Of a DNA stretch of 64,000 nt, positions 20,586 through 36,024 are shown piece by piece. The notes under the pieces are model-generated. The model saw nothing but the letters and a program-made list of their open reading frames with translations, had not been told where the DNA came from and did not search any database. The DNA lies in NCBI GenBank assembly GCA_964343075.1, contig CAYFGT010000006.1, positions 2,016 to 66,015 on the forward strand, given 5' to 3'. Origin of the DNA: an uncultured Dehalococcoidia bacterium (GTDB lineage Bacteria > Chloroflexota > Dehalococcoidia > Lucifugimonadales > UBA3495). A program made the position numbers and the translations under genes. How positions within the stretch are numbered: the stretch's first letter is position 1; every line of letters starts with the position of its first letter.

Positions 20586-21740
20586 ATGTCTAGCAAATTA
20601 AGTAAATGCCATAACACCAAAGATTTTAGAAAACTTGCAAGAAAACGGATACCGTCACCTATTTTCAATTATCTAGATGGCGGAGCAGATGATGAAACGA
20701 CATTAGCAAGGAATACCGACTCTTTTGAGGCATGTGACCTAGTTCCTAACGTATTACGAAGCGTAGGAACCATAGATACTAGTGTTTCTGTGATGGGCAA
20801 GAAAATCAACACACCTTTGTTCTTCTCTCCTACGGCACTGCAACGCCTATTCCATCATCAAGGAGAAAAAGCTGTAGCAAAAGCGGCAGAAAAATTTGGT
20901 ACTTACTGCGGAATATCATCATTAGCAACAGTTAGTATCGAGGAAATAGCAAAGAACTACTCTTCGCCTAAAATGTTCCAGTTATATGTACACAAGGACC
21001 AAGGCTTAAACAATAGCATGATAGAAAAATGCATTGAGCACAATTTTGACGCTTTAGCAATAACGGTTGATACTATCGTGGCTGGAAATAGGGAACGGGA
21101 TTTCTACACAGGGTTCACTACCCCGCCCAAACTGACACCCAAAAGCATGCTCAGCTTTGCGACCCATCCGGCCTGGACGGCAAACTATCTTTTCCGCGAA
21201 AAATTTGAATTGCCCCAACTACAAAGCCACGTCAAAGAAGGTACAGATGTGAAAGTATCGATTGGAGAATATTTCACGTCACTGATTGATCAGAATATGA
21301 ATTGGGACACTATCAATCAAATCAGTAAGAAATGGGGGAAAGCATTATGTATTAAAGGGATCATGTCAGCTGAAGATGCCAAGAAAGCGGTTGATATCGG
21401 GGCTACCGCAATTATGGTGTCTAACCATGGAGGTAGACAACTTGACGGCTCCCGGGCACCATTTGATCAATTAGCTGAGATCGTTGACGCTGTTGGAGAC
21501 AAAGTAGATGTCATCTGTGATGGCGGTATACGGCGAGGAACCCATGTGCTAAAAGCCCTATCACTGGGAGCAAAAGCCTGTTCTGGAGGGAGAATGTATT
21601 TATATGCATTAGCCGCAGGCGGGGAACAGGGGGTAGAACGTGCTATGCAACTAATGCAAGACGAGATCGAACGAGGCATGAAACTAATGGGCTGTACGAA
21701 CATAAATGAATTAAGCAGAGACAATATAAGGTATAGATAA
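20586..21740 (+). CDS. FMN-dependent alpha-hydroxy acid dehydrogenase (L-lactate dehydrogenase/glycolate oxidase family)
   Basis: 384 aa. SNHGGRQLD and GGIRRG motifs. Starts 18 nt after the Mo-hydroxylase gene. Confidence 0.9.
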   Translation: MSSKLSKCHNTKDFRKLARKRIPSPIFNYLDGGADDETTLARNTDSFEACDLVPNVLRSVGTIDTSVSVMGKKINTPLFFSPTALQRLFHHQGEKAVAKAAEKFGTYCGISSLATVSIEEIAKNYSSPKMFQLYVHKDQGLNNSMIEKCIEHNFDALAITVDTIVAGNRERDFYTGFTTPPKLTPKSMLSFATHPAWTANYLFREKFELPQLQSHVKEGTDVKVSIGEYFTSLIDQNMNWDTINQISKKWGKALCIKGIMSAEDAKKAVDIGATAIMVSNHGGRQLDGSRAPFDQLAEIVDAVGDKVDVICDGGIRRGTHVLKALSLGAKACSGGRMYLYALAAGGEQGVERAMQLMQDEIERGMKLMGCTNINELSRDNIRYR

Positions 21741-21745
21741 GCTTT

Positions 21746-22780
21746 CTATGAAACAGAATTTACATCTATTTTTTCTGTAACAGAGTGAGTAGTGCCGCCA
21801 AAAGTAGGAATCCACGAAGAATGCTTCCCAGGTCCTCCTGTAACACCAATCAATAAATCAGAAGTTTCTCTGACCATCGGTACTGGCCCTTTAGGGATTT
21901 CCCCAAATCGCTCCATAAGAGTATCATGAGTATATCTATCTAAGGGTATTAATGCATGCTTCATAAGCCACTCGATAACATCTTGCTTAGTGAACCCATC
22001 TCTTGCTATAGTTTCTGCATGTTCGGGGCCAAACAACAAAACCGTTTGACCACCAGTATATGCATTGTTAGCTCCTGTCACCCCCATAGCTCCAGCAACA
22101 ATCGTTAATATTTCTTCTGCTGACCTACCTGTATGATCATTTATATTGTGAGGAGATTCTCCTGCAACTACAGTAACTGTACTATCGTCAATATCAAATC
22201 CCATATCTACATGGATCGGTTTCCAAGGAGTCAAGTCTTCATTTTCTCCTATGCAAAACGAAAATTTCCCAGGGGAGCCTTGAGAAGACATATCGCCAAT
22301 ACCGGGATTCCCTCCTCCTACATTTAACAATATTAATCTCATAGCTCTGCCAATCACTGCATTAGCAACGAACCCTGGTCCAAACACTCCGGAAGAACAA
22401 TTAATGTTCAATGCTTCTCTAATAGGACCATTAACAATCATCAATACACCACACGGGTGTGTGGTAGCTTGTATGGCATACAGATTAAATTCCGGCTGTA
22501 TAATAGCTTTTATCGCCGCAATTACTACAGGAAAATGCTCCGTACGACACCCTGCCATAACTGCATTAATGGCAACTTTTTCAATAGTTGCCGCCCCCCA
22601 ATTCGGAGGTATCTCTCCCAATACATGACCACGATCAAATCCGCTAGATGCTATCATAGCGTCTACTCTGTCTGGAGTCGGGGGAATTATAGGAAGCCCA
22701 TCACTCCAACCGTGTTTCGTAAAATAATCGTTGATTGCTTCGGAGGATGATGGCAATGAAATTATTTCATTAGGATCCAT
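21746..22780 (-). CDS. conserved-looking hypothetical protein, partner of the UGSC selenoprotein
   Basis: 344 aa, soluble. The ATG lies 5 nt after the selenoprotein TAA with GGGAG upstream. Cys at positions 78, 110, 128 and 176 (VMAGC, THPCG, INCSSG, FSFCIG). I cannot name a family from memory. Confidence 0.6.
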   Translation of the reverse strand: MDPNEIISLPSSSEAINDYFTKHGWSDGLPIIPPTPDRVDAMIASSGFDRGHVLGEIPPNWGAATIEKVAINAVMAGCRTEHFPVVIAAIKAIIQPEFNLYAIQATTHPCGVLMIVNGPIREALNINCSSGVFGPGFVANAVIGRAMRLILLNVGGGNPGIGDMSSQGSPGKFSFCIGENEDLTPWKPIHVDMGFDIDDSTVTVVAGESPHNINDHTGRSAEEILTIVAGAMGVTGANNAYTGGQTVLLFGPEHAETIARDGFTKQDVIEWLMKHALIPLDRYTHDTLMERFGEIPKGPVPMVRETSDLLIGVTGGPGKHSSWIPTFGGTTHSVTEKIDVNSVS

Positions 22781-22784
22781 GAAG

Positions 22785-23321
22785 TTACGCTCCCATCCAT
22801 CCTTTAATGATTTGATCTACAAAAACGTCTGCTAATTCTTTCACTTCCTTTTTCTCAATGCCTCCAAAGGGATGTTTCCCAATAGCGACTGGTAAATCAG
22901 GCATTCCAAGAGTTTTACTTTCCGAATCCGCAAGTCTGATAAATCTATCAGAACATATTGTGACCGTATTAACATTTAATTTCTCTAGCTCAACCGCGTC
23001 ATGGATACACCATGAAGTGCACGAGCCTCAATCTGCTAAACCTATTATTGCTAAGTCTATTTCTGTAGCCATGATCTCTAATGTTTCTTCGTCAAGAGGT
23101 ATAGAGGCCGTCCATTTACTGTAATAAGTAACATCAGATAAATTCAATTTTGGAACTAATATGCTCTCTAGACTTTTAAATATCACTTCACCATTTGGTT
23201 TGTTATTCCACAAAAATCCAAGCCTCTTACCTTCCAGATTTTCAGTTCGATTAGACAATTCGTTTCGCAGTATTCTGGGTTTCGCGGTAGGATTTAATAC
23301 CGAAATAGTATCTAACATCAT
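22785..23321 (-). CDS. UGSC-family selenoprotein (in-frame UGA = Sec at 23028..23030), 178 aa
   Basis: The listed 97-aa ORF ends at TGA. The same frame continues for 80 sense codons (GSCTSWCIHDAVELEKLNVNTVTICSDRFIRLADSESKTLGMPDLPVAIGKHPFGGIEKKEVKELADVFVDQIIKGWMGA) to TAA at 22785..22787. The motif is ...IIGLAD-U-GSC, and a hairpin follows the UGA. Confidence 0.75.
22988..23026 (-). promoter_or_regulatory. SECIS-like stem-loop immediately 3' of the UGA
   Basis: mRNA sequence GCUCGUGCACUUCAUGGUGUAUCCAUGACGCGGUUGAGC. Apical stem CAUGG/CCAUG with loop UGUAU (contains GU), lower pairings GCUC/GAGC or CGUG/CGCG. It starts 4 nt after the UGA, and the loop lies roughly 21-25 nt after it. Confidence 0.5.
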
Positions 23322-23369
23322 CTACTCCTAATTATTCAGGATGGTTTATACACTGTCGTTGTAATACAC

Positions 23370-35430: not shown

Positions 35431-35784
35431 TCAAGACAAGATTTTAGACCCAACGATCGACACTAATCTCCTGATATTAATAATTTCAACATGTTTGAAT
35501 CCAAGAATATTTAGTACCTTGTTGGGTGTGGCATCTTTACCGAGCCTAACAACAGCAGATGATCCTTCAAACAAAGTGAGTCGAAATTGAGAATCGTAGA
35601 GACTCTGGGCAAATGTTTTCACCCAATACATAGACGAAGACAAATTTAATAAATGAGCCAAATCTTGTAGATTGTAACATCTCATATCAATCCGCTTACC
35701 TTCAATATCAATTGAGATTTGAGCATTATCAATCTGAATTTGTAGATGCCCATTAACCAATAATGAAGTTACGTCAGGAATCAT
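35431..35784 (-). CDS. hypothetical protein (117 aa)
   Basis: ORF with an ATG 6 nt after the stop of the upstream small ORF. I recognise no family. The coding call rests on length and operon context only. Confidence 0.4.
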   Translation of the reverse strand: MIPDVTSLLVNGHLQIQIDNAQISIDIEGKRIDMRCYNLQDLAHLLNLSSSMYWVKTFAQSLYDSQFRLTLFEGSSAVVRLGKDATPNKVLNILGFKHVEIINIRRLVSIVGSKILS

Positions 35785-35790
35785 GAAGTA

Positions 35791-36024
35791 TCACGATTCC
35801 CAAGTACGGAGTTTCACACTTCCATTAAGTTTCCACAACGCCCTATCAGGATTGTCTCCTGTGTTCTTAGGAATTGCTATTTCCAGCTCATCAAACCCAT
35901 ACTCAATAGTGGTTTTTCTGCGATTTAAGAAATCATACAATGATTCAAATAACTGAGTCCAAGGAAGTAAATCTTCTAAATTTTTATTCGCGGGTTCAAG
36001 TTGATTATGTTCTACAGTCTTCAC
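35791..36024 (-). CDS. hypothetical small protein (77 aa), faintly amphi-Trp-domain-like C-terminus
   Basis: GTG start with GGAG 6 nt upstream and its own TTGACA-N16-TAGAAT promoter. Ends in alternating hydrophobic residues ...ALWKLNGSVKLRTWES. The family assignment is only a vague resemblance. Confidence 0.4.
   Translation of the reverse strand: MKTVEHNQLEPANKNLEDLLPWTQLFESLYDFLNRRKTTIEYGFDELEIAIPKNTGDNPDRALWKLNGSVKLRTWES

What the first reader, a model, noticed from the sequence alone, without database searches (positions are those of the whole stretch)
22785..23321. Mis-split selenoprotein: in-frame UGA inside a U-G-S-C motif
The ORF track ends a 97-aa ORF at TGA 23028..23030. My hand translation shows the same frame runs on for 80 sense codons to TAA 22785..22787. 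That is a long open stretch for such AT-rich, stop-prone DNA. The junction reads ...EIDLAIIGLAD-U-GSCTSWCIHDAV..., so the UGA sits in a UxxC(xxxC) redox-type motif right after a beta-strand-like segment. From memory, UGSC/CGSC is the defining motif of the 'UGSC family (seleno)protein', a family with no assigned function. The next gene starts 5 nt after the TAA, not after the TGA. Without recoding, 243 nt would be dead space in an otherwise gap-free operon.
Basis: partly seen in the sequence, partly recalled or inferred. Interest (0 to 1): 0.85.

Follow-up and report, generated by a model that had tools for sequence, protein, structure and literature searches.

The report
UGSC selenoprotein gene, wrongly split
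The 97-codon ORF and the 243 "empty" bases after it are one gene for a selenocysteine protein of the already described UGSC family. Its in-frame UGA fools gene finders. The gene is an ordinary family member, but it always sits next to a large, unnamed partner protein family whose function is still unknown.

Summary
On the minus strand, ATG 23321 (more likely 23318) runs through an in-frame TGA (23030..23028) and 80 more sense codons to TAA 22787..22785.

- **Family match:** the read-through protein matches Pfam PF24696 (150 bits, both halves) and NCBIfam NF041046 "UGSC family (seleno)protein" (126.1 bits, cut-off 125).
- **Conservation:** all 85 related loci I fetched keep TGA at this codon. 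More distant homologues have Cys there.
- **Selection:** the 80 codons after the TGA are under strong purifying selection (dN/dS 0.07-0.11).
- **Recoding signal:** a conserved hairpin with a GU-containing loop starts 10-12 nt after the UGA, and one pair shows a compensatory change.
- **Genetic code:** TGA is an ordinary stop elsewhere in the window.
- **Prior knowledge:** the family has been described since 2007-2008, with function unknown.

Beyond the finding:
- UGSC is almost always followed by, or fused to, the 344-aa downstream gene. That gene belongs to a very large family with no Pfam or NCBIfam model and no structural match in the PDB.
- UGSC is a distant homologue of the Sec-bearing C-terminal part of GrdB/PrdB reductase selenoproteins.
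- UGSC is predicted to have a flavodoxin-like fold, not a thioredoxin fold.

The Sec-decoding machinery could not be checked.

The parts
22785..23321 (-). UGSC-family selenoprotein gene. It encodes 178 codons from ATG 23321, or 177 from the likelier ATG 23318, and includes the in-frame UGA and the TAA stop.
   Evidence: Translation. Pfam PF24696, 150 bits, residues 8-176. NCBIfam NF041046, 126.1 bits against cut-off 125. dN/dS after the TGA is 0.07-0.11.
23325..23328 (-). GGAG Shine-Dalgarno-like motif, 6 nt upstream of ATG 23318 and only 3 nt upstream of ATG 23321.
   Evidence: Read from the sequence. Orthologues conserve only the second ATG. The public gene call is the 96-aa version.
23028..23030 (-). 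In-frame UGA, read as selenocysteine within the D-U-G-S-C motif.
   Evidence: TGA is at the homologous codon in all 85 related loci. Cys occupies this position in distant homologues. TGA is a normal stop for 17 of 60 long ORFs in the window.
22987..23027 (-). SECIS-like stem-loop inside the coding sequence. The core hairpin is 22999..23015 (UCAUGG-UGUAU-CCAUGA), starting 12 nt after the UGA. A lower stem pairs GGCUC with GAGCU.
   Evidence: Folds. The same hairpin is found in 53 distinct relatives (CGUCGUGGA-GUA-UCCACGACG), with 6 core pairs invariant. One pair switches G-C to A-U in 5 sequences and is broken in 1.
21746..22780 (-). Partner gene (344 aa), 4 nt downstream in the same operon. 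It belongs to a large, uncharacterised, highly conserved family.
   Evidence: No Pfam or NCBIfam hit. More than 7,491 90%-identity clusters and 5,339 50%-identity representatives. It lies downstream of UGSC in 60 of 65 loci with room for it. It is fused to UGSC in 52 of the 150 best representatives.

Best explanation
Window 22785..23318/23321 (minus strand) is one gene for a UGSC-family selenoprotein.

Shown or strongly supported:
- The in-frame UGA at 23030..23028 is decoded rather than used as a stop. By comparison with Cys-containing homologues, it is decoded as selenocysteine.
- A stem-loop 12 nt downstream, inside the coding sequence, is the likely recoding signal (bacterial SECIS type).
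- The gene is co-transcribed with the 344-aa gene 4 nt downstream.

Inferred mechanism:
- The two proteins form a complex. In many organisms they are a single fused chain.
- The UGSC subunit is predicted to have a flavodoxin-like fold, with Sec at the N-terminus of the helix after strand 3 and Cys three residues later. It supplies a selenol/thiol redox pair (U-x-x-C).
- The partner has nearly invariant Cys78, Cys176, Glu179, Arg145 and a DGLP motif, and supplies the substrate site.
- UGSC is a distant homologue of the Sec-bearing C-terminal part of GrdB/PrdB. The likeliest chemistry is therefore a reductase cycle: the selenolate attacks a substrate, or an oxidised cysteine, on the partner. The neighbouring Cys then resolves the adduct to a selenenylsulfide. 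A thioredoxin-reductase-type system re-reduces it.

The substrate is unknown. I put about 0.9 on the identity (a translated UGSC selenoprotein gene) and about 0.4-0.5 on the two-subunit reductase mechanism.
For: Identity:
- Pfam PF24696 at 150 bits over residues 8-176, and NCBIfam NF041046 at 126.1 bits against cut-off 125.
- TGA at this codon in 85 of 85 related loci.
- CGSC in full-length homologues.
- dN/dS 0.07-0.11 after the TGA.
- Conserved hairpin 10-12 nt after the UGA with a GU-containing loop and one compensatory pair.
- TGA is otherwise a stop in this window.
- The family is described as a selenoprotein family in PMC1976440 and PMC2398784 (255 Sec and 21 Cys members in the GOS data).

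Complex:
- The partner lies directly downstream on the same strand in 60 of 65 loci, or 57 of 62 if the three loci fetched through the partner are excluded.
- Cys-form UGSC genes in a haloarchaeon and in a Pseudomonadota MAG have the same neighbour.
- 52 of the 150 best partner representatives carry UGSC sequence in the same chain, in both domain orders. Many of these are cut exactly at the Sec column.

Redox and reductase:
- 36 of 61 UGSC members hit the GrdB model TIGR01917 (best E 4.5e-7). UGSC residues about 77-170 match profile positions 331-420 of 431.
- One partner homologue is fused to a thioredoxin-reductase-like domain with a CAVCD motif.
- The AlphaFold model (pLDDT 93.8) places the Cys/Sec between strand 3 and helix 3.
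Against: - No selA, selB, selD or tRNA-Sec was found in the window or in reachable flanks, so Sec decoding in this genome is inferred only.
- The window's own hairpin is not thermodynamically unusual (z -0.7 to -1.6), and no Rfam family matches it.
- Most of the stem is fixed by the conserved peptide TSW[SC]IHD, so covariation rests on one pair.
- Some fused UGSC domains have lost one or both Cys: P0253 EIGGSLF, P0259 DIGAAMSW, P0289 WSGVYTIW. The redox pair is therefore not needed in every family member.
- The partner shows no homology to GrdB N-terminal regions, GrdE or PrdA and no fold match. The substrate site is conjecture.
- Genomic contexts vary.
Confidence: 0.85

Rival explanations
1. 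The TGA is a genuine stop caused by a nonsense mutation, a pseudogene or a sequencing error. Only the 96-97-aa fragment is made, and the 243 nt after it are decaying sequence.
For: Gene callers in public collections call only the 96-aa fragment. No Sec machinery was seen in the window.
Against: TGA is at the same codon in 85 of 85 independent related loci from many samples. The downstream 80 codons stay open in all of them, with dN/dS 0.07-0.11. Cys homologues are single full-length chains.
Confidence: 0.02
2. The UGA is read through, but as a standard amino acid (Cys, Trp or Gly via near-cognate or suppressor decoding) and not as selenocysteine.
For: The Sec machinery was not demonstrated for this genome. 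The hairpin in this AT-rich copy is weak.
Against: TGA terminates 17 of 60 long ORFs here, so there is no code reassignment. A Sec/Cys pair in a UxxC motif together with a positioned hairpin is the signature of Sec decoding. The family is an accepted selenoprotein family with mostly Sec members in marine data (PMC2398784). Strict retention of TGA over the one-step TGC/TGT alternative in 85 loci implies that the codon encodes something Cys cannot replace cheaply.
Confidence: 0.05
3. Mechanistic rival: UGSC is not a catalytic subunit. It is a dedicated thioredoxin-like electron carrier that only re-reduces a disulfide or sulfenate formed on the partner's own Cys78/Cys176 after the partner has done the chemistry.
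For: UxxC at a helix N-terminus is the classic carrier geometry. The partner has two nearly invariant Cys. A partner-TrxR-like fusion exists. Some fused UGSC domains lack the Cys pair, which is easier to tolerate for an accessory carrier.
Against: Free-standing carriers are rarely fused to their client in a third of family representatives and in both orders. The homology is to GrdB/PrdB, where the Sec subunit is part of the catalytic machinery. The fold is not thioredoxin-like.
Confidence: 0.3
4. The two halves are separate small proteins: an N-terminal fragment ending at TGA, and a C-terminal fragment started independently.
For: Gene callers in other genomes list two ORFs, both hitting PF24696.
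Against: In the window, the first in-frame start codon after the TGA is the ATG at residue 140, leaving only 39 codons. The Pfam and NCBIfam models and all Cys homologues span the junction as one domain, and the predicted fold is a single five-stranded sheet built from both halves.
Confidence: 0.01

Closest known systems
UGSC family (seleno)protein (NCBIfam NF041046; Pfam PF24696). Called the 'UGSC-containing protein' by Zhang & Gladyshev (2007) and Zhang et al. (2008).
   Same: Same motif (D-U-G-S-C-T-S-W), same length, and both models are matched above their cut-offs. Sec and Cys forms both occur. The family is abundant in marine metagenomes and has been reported fused to an unnamed domain ('Unknown_1').
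   Different: Nothing essential: this is a member. The published guess of a thioredoxin-like fold is not borne out by the model made here, which is flavodoxin-like.
Selenoprotein B of glycine/sarcosine/betaine/D-proline reductases (GrdB, GrdF, GrdH, PrdB; TIGR01917, TIGR01918; Pfam PF07355).
   Same: Significant but distant sequence similarity of UGSC residues about 77-170 to the Sec-bearing C-terminal 90 residues. The layout is the same: hydrophobic strand, U-x-x-C at a helix start, then a '...G-[IV]-P-T-V' strand and a P-x-G loop. Both work with a second protein.
   Different: UGSC lacks the roughly 330-residue N-terminal part of GrdB, and its scores are far below the family cut-offs (15-29 bits against 602). 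There are no GrdA, GrdE or PrdA (pyruvoyl proprotein) genes nearby. The partner is unrelated to them. The organisms are aerobic marine and halophilic heterotrophs, not Stickland fermenters.
Thioredoxin-fold UxxC/CxxU selenoproteins (Trx-like, Prx-like, SelW-like, AhpD-like).
   Same: A redox motif with Sec and Cys two residues apart at the N-terminus of a helix, and Sec/Cys interchange among homologues.
   Different: The predicted fold is a five-stranded parallel alpha/beta (flavodoxin-like) sandwich. No thioredoxin-fold protein appears among the top 50 PDB matches.
Bacterial SECIS element (E. coli fdhF type).
   Same: A hairpin inside the coding sequence that starts 10-12 nt after the UGA, with a small apical loop containing G-U.
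   Different: No curated RNA model matches it. In this AT-rich copy the stem has only 6 pairs with a 5-nt loop, and its stability is not above that of shuffled sequence.

Membership tests
UGSC family (seleno)protein (NF041046 / PF24696) | Scores above the curated cut-offs of the family models over the whole domain. | tested here: met
   NF041046 gives 126.1 bits against cut-off 125 (a narrow margin). PF24696 gives 150 bits against cut-off 25, over residues 8-176 of 178. The protein was scored with U written as C.
UGSC family (seleno)protein (NF041046 / PF24696) | U/C-G-S-C motif at the conserved position. | tested here: met
   D-U-GSCTSW aligns with D-C-GSCTSW of the Cys homologues. These residues are invariant or at least 90% conserved in alignments A2 and A3.
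Bacterial selenoprotein (Sec-decoded UGA) | The in-frame UGA is conserved among orthologues, and Cys is aligned at that position in other homologues. | tested here: met
   85 of 85 loci have TGA. More than 100 full-length homologues have Cys.
Bacterial selenoprotein (Sec-decoded UGA) | The sequence after the UGA is translated (purifying selection). | tested here: met
   dN/dS is 0.07-0.11 for the 80 codons after the TGA against four orthologues, with dS above 1.
Bacterial selenoprotein (Sec-decoded UGA) | A SECIS hairpin shortly downstream of the UGA with G/U in the apical loop. | tested here: met
   A conserved hairpin lies 10-12 nt after the UGA, with loop GUA (UGUAU in the window). Six core pairs are invariant and one is compensatory (G-C in 47, A-U in 5, broken in 1). 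Caveats: the stem overlaps a conserved peptide, the window's copy folds no better than shuffles, and there is no Rfam match.
Bacterial selenoprotein (Sec-decoded UGA) | The genome encodes selA, selB, selC (tRNA-Sec) and selD. | not testable with these tools
   None is in the 64-kb window, its about 20 kb of reachable flanks, or the fetched loci.
Bacterial selenoprotein (Sec-decoded UGA) | Selenium is physically present in the protein. | not testable with these tools
   This needs 75Se labelling or mass spectrometry.
GrdB/PrdB selenoprotein B family (TIGR01917/TIGR01918, PF07355) | Full-length match above the family cut-off (about 430 aa, N-terminal substrate domain plus Sec region). | tested here: not met
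   The window protein scores 15.2 bits against cut-off 602, and the best UGSC member scores 29.1 bits. Only profile positions about 331-420 are matched. PF07355 was not hit by any of the 61 members.
GrdB/PrdB selenoprotein B family (TIGR01917/TIGR01918, PF07355) | Homology of the Sec-bearing region, with Sec in register. | tested here: met
   36 of 61 UGSC members hit TIGR01917 (best E 4.5e-7), 17 hit TIGR01918, 13 hit GrdF and 11 hit GrdH. hhalign against five GOS PrdB/GrdB reads puts the Cys/Sec in register, but only at probability 11% and P 0.0028.
GrdB/PrdB selenoprotein B family (TIGR01917/TIGR01918, PF07355) | Accompanied by a pyruvoyl proprotein (GrdE/PrdA) and GrdA. | tested here: not met
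   No such genes are in the window neighbourhood or in eight annotated loci. The partner has no similarity to any NCBIfam or Pfam model.
Thioredoxin-fold redox selenoproteins | Thioredoxin fold. | tested here: not met
   The AlphaFold model of Cys homologue P0125 (45% identical, pLDDT 93.8) has a beta-alpha x5 topology. The best PDB matches are lumazine synthase, flavodoxin domains and TIR/receiver-like folds at TM about 0.5. No Trx, Prx or Grx appears.

The most novel reading that the evidence does not exclude
UGSC and its 344-aa neighbour together form a very widespread, so far uncharacterised two-subunit (or fused) seleno/thiol-dependent reductase found in bacteria and archaea. Its Sec module is an evolutionary sibling of the GrdB/PrdB Sec domain. 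Its catalytic subunit has a fold with no solved relative and no family model. Electrons arrive through a thioredoxin-reductase-type flavoprotein. That would make it a new enzyme class, abundant in marine heterotrophs.
Probability: 0.4. Interest if true: 0.65.

Novelty: new member of a known kind. Interest (0 to 1): 0.35.

Why it matters
For this genome the result is an annotation fix. Two apparent features, a 96-aa orphan ORF and a 243-nt gap, become one selenoprotein gene. It also means this marine Dehalococcoidia lineage should carry Sec-decoding machinery.

More broadly, UGSC proteins are among the most abundant selenoproteins in ocean metagenomes and still have no assigned function. Four observations from this work turn "function unknown" into a two-protein system that can be tested biochemically:
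- UGSC is essentially always paired or fused with one specific, extremely conserved family that has no family model.
- The Sec region is related to GrdB/PrdB.
- The predicted fold is flavodoxin-like rather than thioredoxin-like.
- A thioredoxin-reductase-like fusion of the partner exists.

Tried and rejected
- **First protein word-index search** with the read-through protein found only one homologue, because Sec forms are split in the database. An alignment query was needed.
I used that job for the partner instead.
- **PDB sequence searches** for both proteins found nothing meaningful.
- **Fold search of the partner model** gave a best TM of 0.26 (class I fumarate hydratase, Toblerone-fold hydrolases, PrpD). 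I rejected these as non-significant.
- **Family-model searches for the partner:** Pfam at E up to 10 on 39 members, NCBIfam at E up to 1 on 65 members, and hhalign against GOS PrdB/GrdB reads all returned only noise.
- **Pfam GRDB (PF07355)** was not hit by any UGSC member. The GrdB link rests on NCBIfam models only.
- **Rfam**, at gathering and at relaxed thresholds, gave no SECIS family.
- **Search for other selenoprotein genes in the window** (in-frame TGA with at least 40 codons on both sides) found only UGSC as convincing. The other candidates are antisense to real genes or are adjacent genes such as xseB.
- **Search for sel genes and tRNA-Sec** in the window, the contig flanks and all loci found none.
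- **Figure S1A of PMC2398784** (the UGSC/Unknown_1 fusion) is held only as an image, so I could not confirm that 'Unknown_1' is the partner family.
- **Mo-hydroxylase link considered:** I looked for a link to the nearby Mo-hydroxylase gene. It recurs in only 12 loci, and my reading of which loci these are (not tabulated) is that most belong to the window's own clade. I dropped the idea.
Full report
**1. The observation**

On the minus strand the sequence reads ATG ATG TTA ... GCA GAT TGA GGC TCG TGC ACT TCA TGG ... GGA GCG TAA. Translating 23321..22785 gives 97 codons, a TGA at 23030..23028, 80 sense codons and TAA 22787..22785. The junction reads EIDLAIIGLAD*GSCTSWCIHDAV. The mechanical ORF list stops the 97-aa ORF at that TGA. 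The next listed gene (21746..22780, minus strand, 344 aa) starts 4 nt after the TAA. The window has 39.9% G+C, and only 1.9% of inter-stop segments in its six frames reach 80 codons.

**2. Identity**

With the UGA written as Cys, the 178-aa product matches two family models:
- Pfam PF24696 'UGSC family', 150 bits over residues 8-176, which covers both halves.
- NCBIfam NF041046 'UGSC family (seleno)protein', 126.1 bits against a curated cut-off of 125.

Two genome contigs of marine Dehalococcoidia/Chloroflexota MAGs (L001, L002; 79% identity) have the same gene with TGA at the same codon. A metagenome scan returned 80 more loci at 44-80% identity. Every related locus fetched (85 of 85) has TGA there, and in the 84 loci whose sequence reaches the end of the gene a further 79-100 open codons follow it. 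One of these loci carries a U-G-A-C variant of the motif.

More distant homologues are single chains of 170-230 aa with C-G-S-C at that position. They come from haloarchaea, Pseudomonadota and many metagenomes, and some are named 'UGSC family (seleno)protein' by NCBI.

Against four orthologues, the 80 codons after the TGA have dN/dS of 0.07-0.11 with saturated dS, the same as or lower than the N-terminal half. TGA is the stop codon of 17 of 60 long ORFs in the window, so the genetic code is standard. Public gene calls contain only the 96-aa N-terminal fragment of this exact gene, seen in Tara Oceans and other assemblies. In other genomes the gene is called as two ORFs that both hit PF24696. 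'Mis-split' is an accurate description.

**3. Recoding signal**

Downstream of the UGA the window folds into a lower stem (GGCUC with GAGCU) and a hairpin, UCAUGG-UGUAU-CCAUGA. The hairpin starts 12 nt after the UGA.

The 53 distinct relatives have the same element, usually as CGUCGUGGA-GUA-UCCACGACG starting 10 nt after the UGA. Counting pairs on that alignment gives these results:
- Six of the upper-stem pairs are invariant.
- One pair is G-C in 47 sequences and A-U in 5, through two synonymous changes (TCG/CAC to TCA/CAT). It is broken in only 1 sequence.
- Overall, 84% of cells are paired, against 32-40% for slid controls.

The spacing and the G-U in the apical loop fit what I recall of the E. 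coli fdhF-type bacterial SECIS; that is prior knowledge, not something tested here.

There are caveats. The stem is encoded by the conserved peptide TSW[SC]IHD, so most positions cannot vary freely. The window's own copy is no more stable than shuffled sequence (z -0.7 to -1.6), while G+C-richer relatives reach z -2.2 to -2.7. Rfam has no matching family. In three Cys-form genes the corresponding codons do not form the 9-bp stem with a GUA loop. That is anecdotal support that the hairpin is specific to Sec forms.

**4. What could not be shown**

I found no tRNA-Sec, selA, selB or selD. I looked in the window, in about 20 kb of flanking contig reached through identical proteins, and in all fetched loci. 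Sec decoding in this organism is therefore inferred from comparative evidence only.

**5. Surroundings**

The UGSC gene and the 344-aa gene form a two-gene unit:
- An 80-nt upstream region is shared with a divergent aminopeptidase P gene.
- The 3' end converges on an FMN-dependent dehydrogenase gene, which is preceded by a Mo-hydroxylase large-subunit gene.
- There is no promoter-like or terminator-like site between the two genes.

The same synteny holds in L001.

The 344-aa protein has no hit in Pfam or NCBIfam, even at permissive thresholds and across 39 and 65 diverse members. It has no PDB sequence match. Its AlphaFold model (pLDDT 82.5) has no significant structural match (best TM 0.26).

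Yet the family is very large and very conserved:
- More than 7,491 clusters at 90% identity match it.
- 5,339 representatives at 50% identity match at E no greater than 1e-3, and 1,343 at E no greater than 1e-30.
- Mean column identity is 78% among 39 members from unrelated contigs.

Across 65 representatives of 37-48% identity, these features stay invariant or nearly so: D27-G-L-P, N-A-V-M-A-G-C78, T107, G144-R145, C176, E179 and P185-W186.

**6. The pair is obligate**

- In loci fetched through UGSC with more than 400 nt of downstream sequence, the partner lies next on the same strand in 57 of 62. The count is 60 of 65 when three loci fetched through the partner are included. The five misses have only 444-665 nt of room, and in several of the marine clades the spacer between the two genes is about 470-510 nt.
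- Partner homologues of only 62-64% identity, on 2.5-3.4-Mb contigs, are preceded by a split Sec-form UGSC.
- Cys-form UGSC genes have the same 350-370-aa no-Pfam neighbour. This holds in Salinigranum rubrum, in a Pseudomonadota MAG and on a third contig. The third contig carries two pairs, one in reversed gene order.
- Among the 150 best partner representatives, 52 contain UGSC sequence in the same chain. Of these, 17 have a complete N-terminal UGSC domain. Another 31 begin just after the Sec column, which is what a gene caller leaves of a Sec-containing fusion. The remaining 4 end in '...GD' exactly before the Sec column, indicating a reversed-order fusion cut at the UGA.

The 2008 GOS paper had already noted a UGSC fusion with an unnamed 'Unknown_1' domain (PMC2398784). 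I could not verify that it is the same domain, because the figure is held only as an image.

**7. Clues to mechanism**

(a) The AlphaFold model of the closest full-length Cys homologue (P0125, 45% identical, 61-sequence alignment) has pLDDT 93.8. It shows a beta-alpha x5 three-layer fold, with the Cys/Sec between strand 3 and helix 3. PDB matches are flavodoxin-like folds at TM about 0.5: lumazine synthase, flavodiiron flavodoxin domains and TIR domains. No thioredoxin-fold protein appears among the top 50. The thioredoxin-like fold suggested in 2008 is therefore not supported.

(b) The window protein weakly hits the GrdB model TIGR01917 (E 0.0078). Across 61 family members, 36 hit TIGR01917 (best E 4.5e-7), 17 hit TIGR01918, 13 hit GrdF and 11 hit GrdH. 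In every case UGSC residues about 77-170 match profile positions about 331-420 of 431, which is the Sec-bearing end of selenoprotein B. GOS PrdB/GrdB-like reads show the same layout: hydrophobic strand, U-x-x-C, helix, then '...IPTV'. hhalign puts the Cys in register with them, but only weakly. Pfam's GRDB model is not hit. UGSC is thus a distant relative of that module, not a member of the GrdB family.

(c) One partner homologue (P0279) is fused to a low-Mr thioredoxin-reductase-like domain with a CAVCD redox motif.

(d) Against a universal redox role, several fused UGSC domains have lost one or both Cys.

(e) Gene neighbourhoods vary. They include a TPP-dependent enzyme directly upstream in 30 loci of one marine clade and in L003. 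Others hold MmgE/PrpD, aconitase-like, PrpF, CoA-transferase, acyl-CoA dehydrogenase, enoyl-CoA hydratase, Amidohydro_2 or enolase-superfamily genes. In the window the neighbours are aminopeptidase P and FMN_dh. This points loosely to small-organic-acid catabolism and gives no substrate.

**8. Most likely working**

The two proteins form a complex. In what follows, the association and the redox motif are supported by data, and the catalytic cycle itself is inference by analogy with established knowledge of D-proline and glycine reductases. I propose that:
1. The UGSC subunit's selenolate attacks a substrate, or an oxidised cysteine, held by the partner.
2. The Cys three residues later resolves the adduct to a selenenylsulfide.
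3. A thioredoxin-reductase-type system restores the reduced state.

The main mechanistic rival is that UGSC only recycles the partner's own cysteines, as a dedicated electron carrier.

**9. Comparison and novelty**

The gene is a regular member of a selenoprotein family that has been known since 2007-2008. That family is listed in recent reviews as being of unknown function (PMC1976440, PMC2398784, PMC9312934, PMC13188914). Mis-splitting at UGA is the expected artefact. As a finding it is correct but ordinary, a new member of a known kind.

What this follow-up may add is fourfold. I did not see any of these points in the papers I read, but I cannot exclude that they have been noted elsewhere:
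- the near-obligate pairing with a huge family that has no model;
- the homology to the GrdB/PrdB Sec module;
- the predicted non-thioredoxin fold;
- the fusion of the partner to a thioredoxin-reductase-like domain.

Noticed in passing
window 35431..36024 (minus strand): A 77-aa ORF ends at TGA 35791..35793, and the same frame continues for 119 more codons. The listed 117-aa ORF (35431..35784) lies within that stretch; the junction reads ...KLRTWES*YFMIPDV.... There is no Cys near the TGA, and the read-through product has no Pfam hit. It is probably two adjacent small genes or a decayed gene rather than a selenoprotein.
   Followed up: partly
L038-L085 (for example L046:1148-2758) and L003:3061-4698: A 536-545-aa TPP-dependent enzyme gene (TPP_enzyme_N/M/C) lies directly upstream of UGSC on the same strand in 30 loci. 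My reading is that most belong to one marine clade, plus a more distant locus. This association is absent from the window's own clade.
   Followed up: partly
L046:3516-3970 and similar loci: In several marine clades a 430-510-nt spacer separates UGSC from the partner. In the one locus examined (L046) it holds an antisense 83-aa ORF. In the window the spacer is only 4 nt.
   Followed up: no
P0279 (695 aa; partner family representative): A partner domain (residues 25-353) is fused to a thioredoxin-reductase-like Pyr_redox_2 domain (387-677) with a CAVCD motif.
   Followed up: partly
P0253, P0259, P0289, P0260, P0363 (UGSC-partner fusion proteins): The U/CGSC motif is degenerate in these fusions (EIGGSLF, DIGAAMSW, WSGVYTIW, HCGASSSW, DCGTSTSM). 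Some fused UGSC domains can therefore no longer form the Sec/Cys-Cys redox pair.
   Followed up: partly
P0265 (717 aa), P0272 (741 aa): These representatives match the partner in two or three stretches and have no Pfam hit. They appear to be tandem duplications of the partner domain.
   Followed up: no
L088:4907-8216: Two UGSC-partner pairs (Cys forms) lie back to back on one contig. One is in the order partner-UGSC and the other UGSC-partner. They sit next to enolase-superfamily, alpha/beta-hydrolase and RraA-like genes.
   Followed up: no
L053:458: A Sec-form relative carries the motif variant D-U-G-A-C-T-S-W (Ala instead of Ser) with the same downstream hairpin.
   Followed up: no
window 21738..21748: The partner gene and the convergent FMN-dependent dehydrogenase gene end 5 nt apart. 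No terminator-like structure is detected between them.
   Followed up: no
partner protein residues 103-109 and 159-171 (window 21746..22780): The two lowest-confidence segments of the AlphaFold model (pLDDT below 50) are among the most conserved sequence stretches (TTHPC and PGxGDMSxQGxPxK). They may be mobile active-site loops.
   Followed up: no
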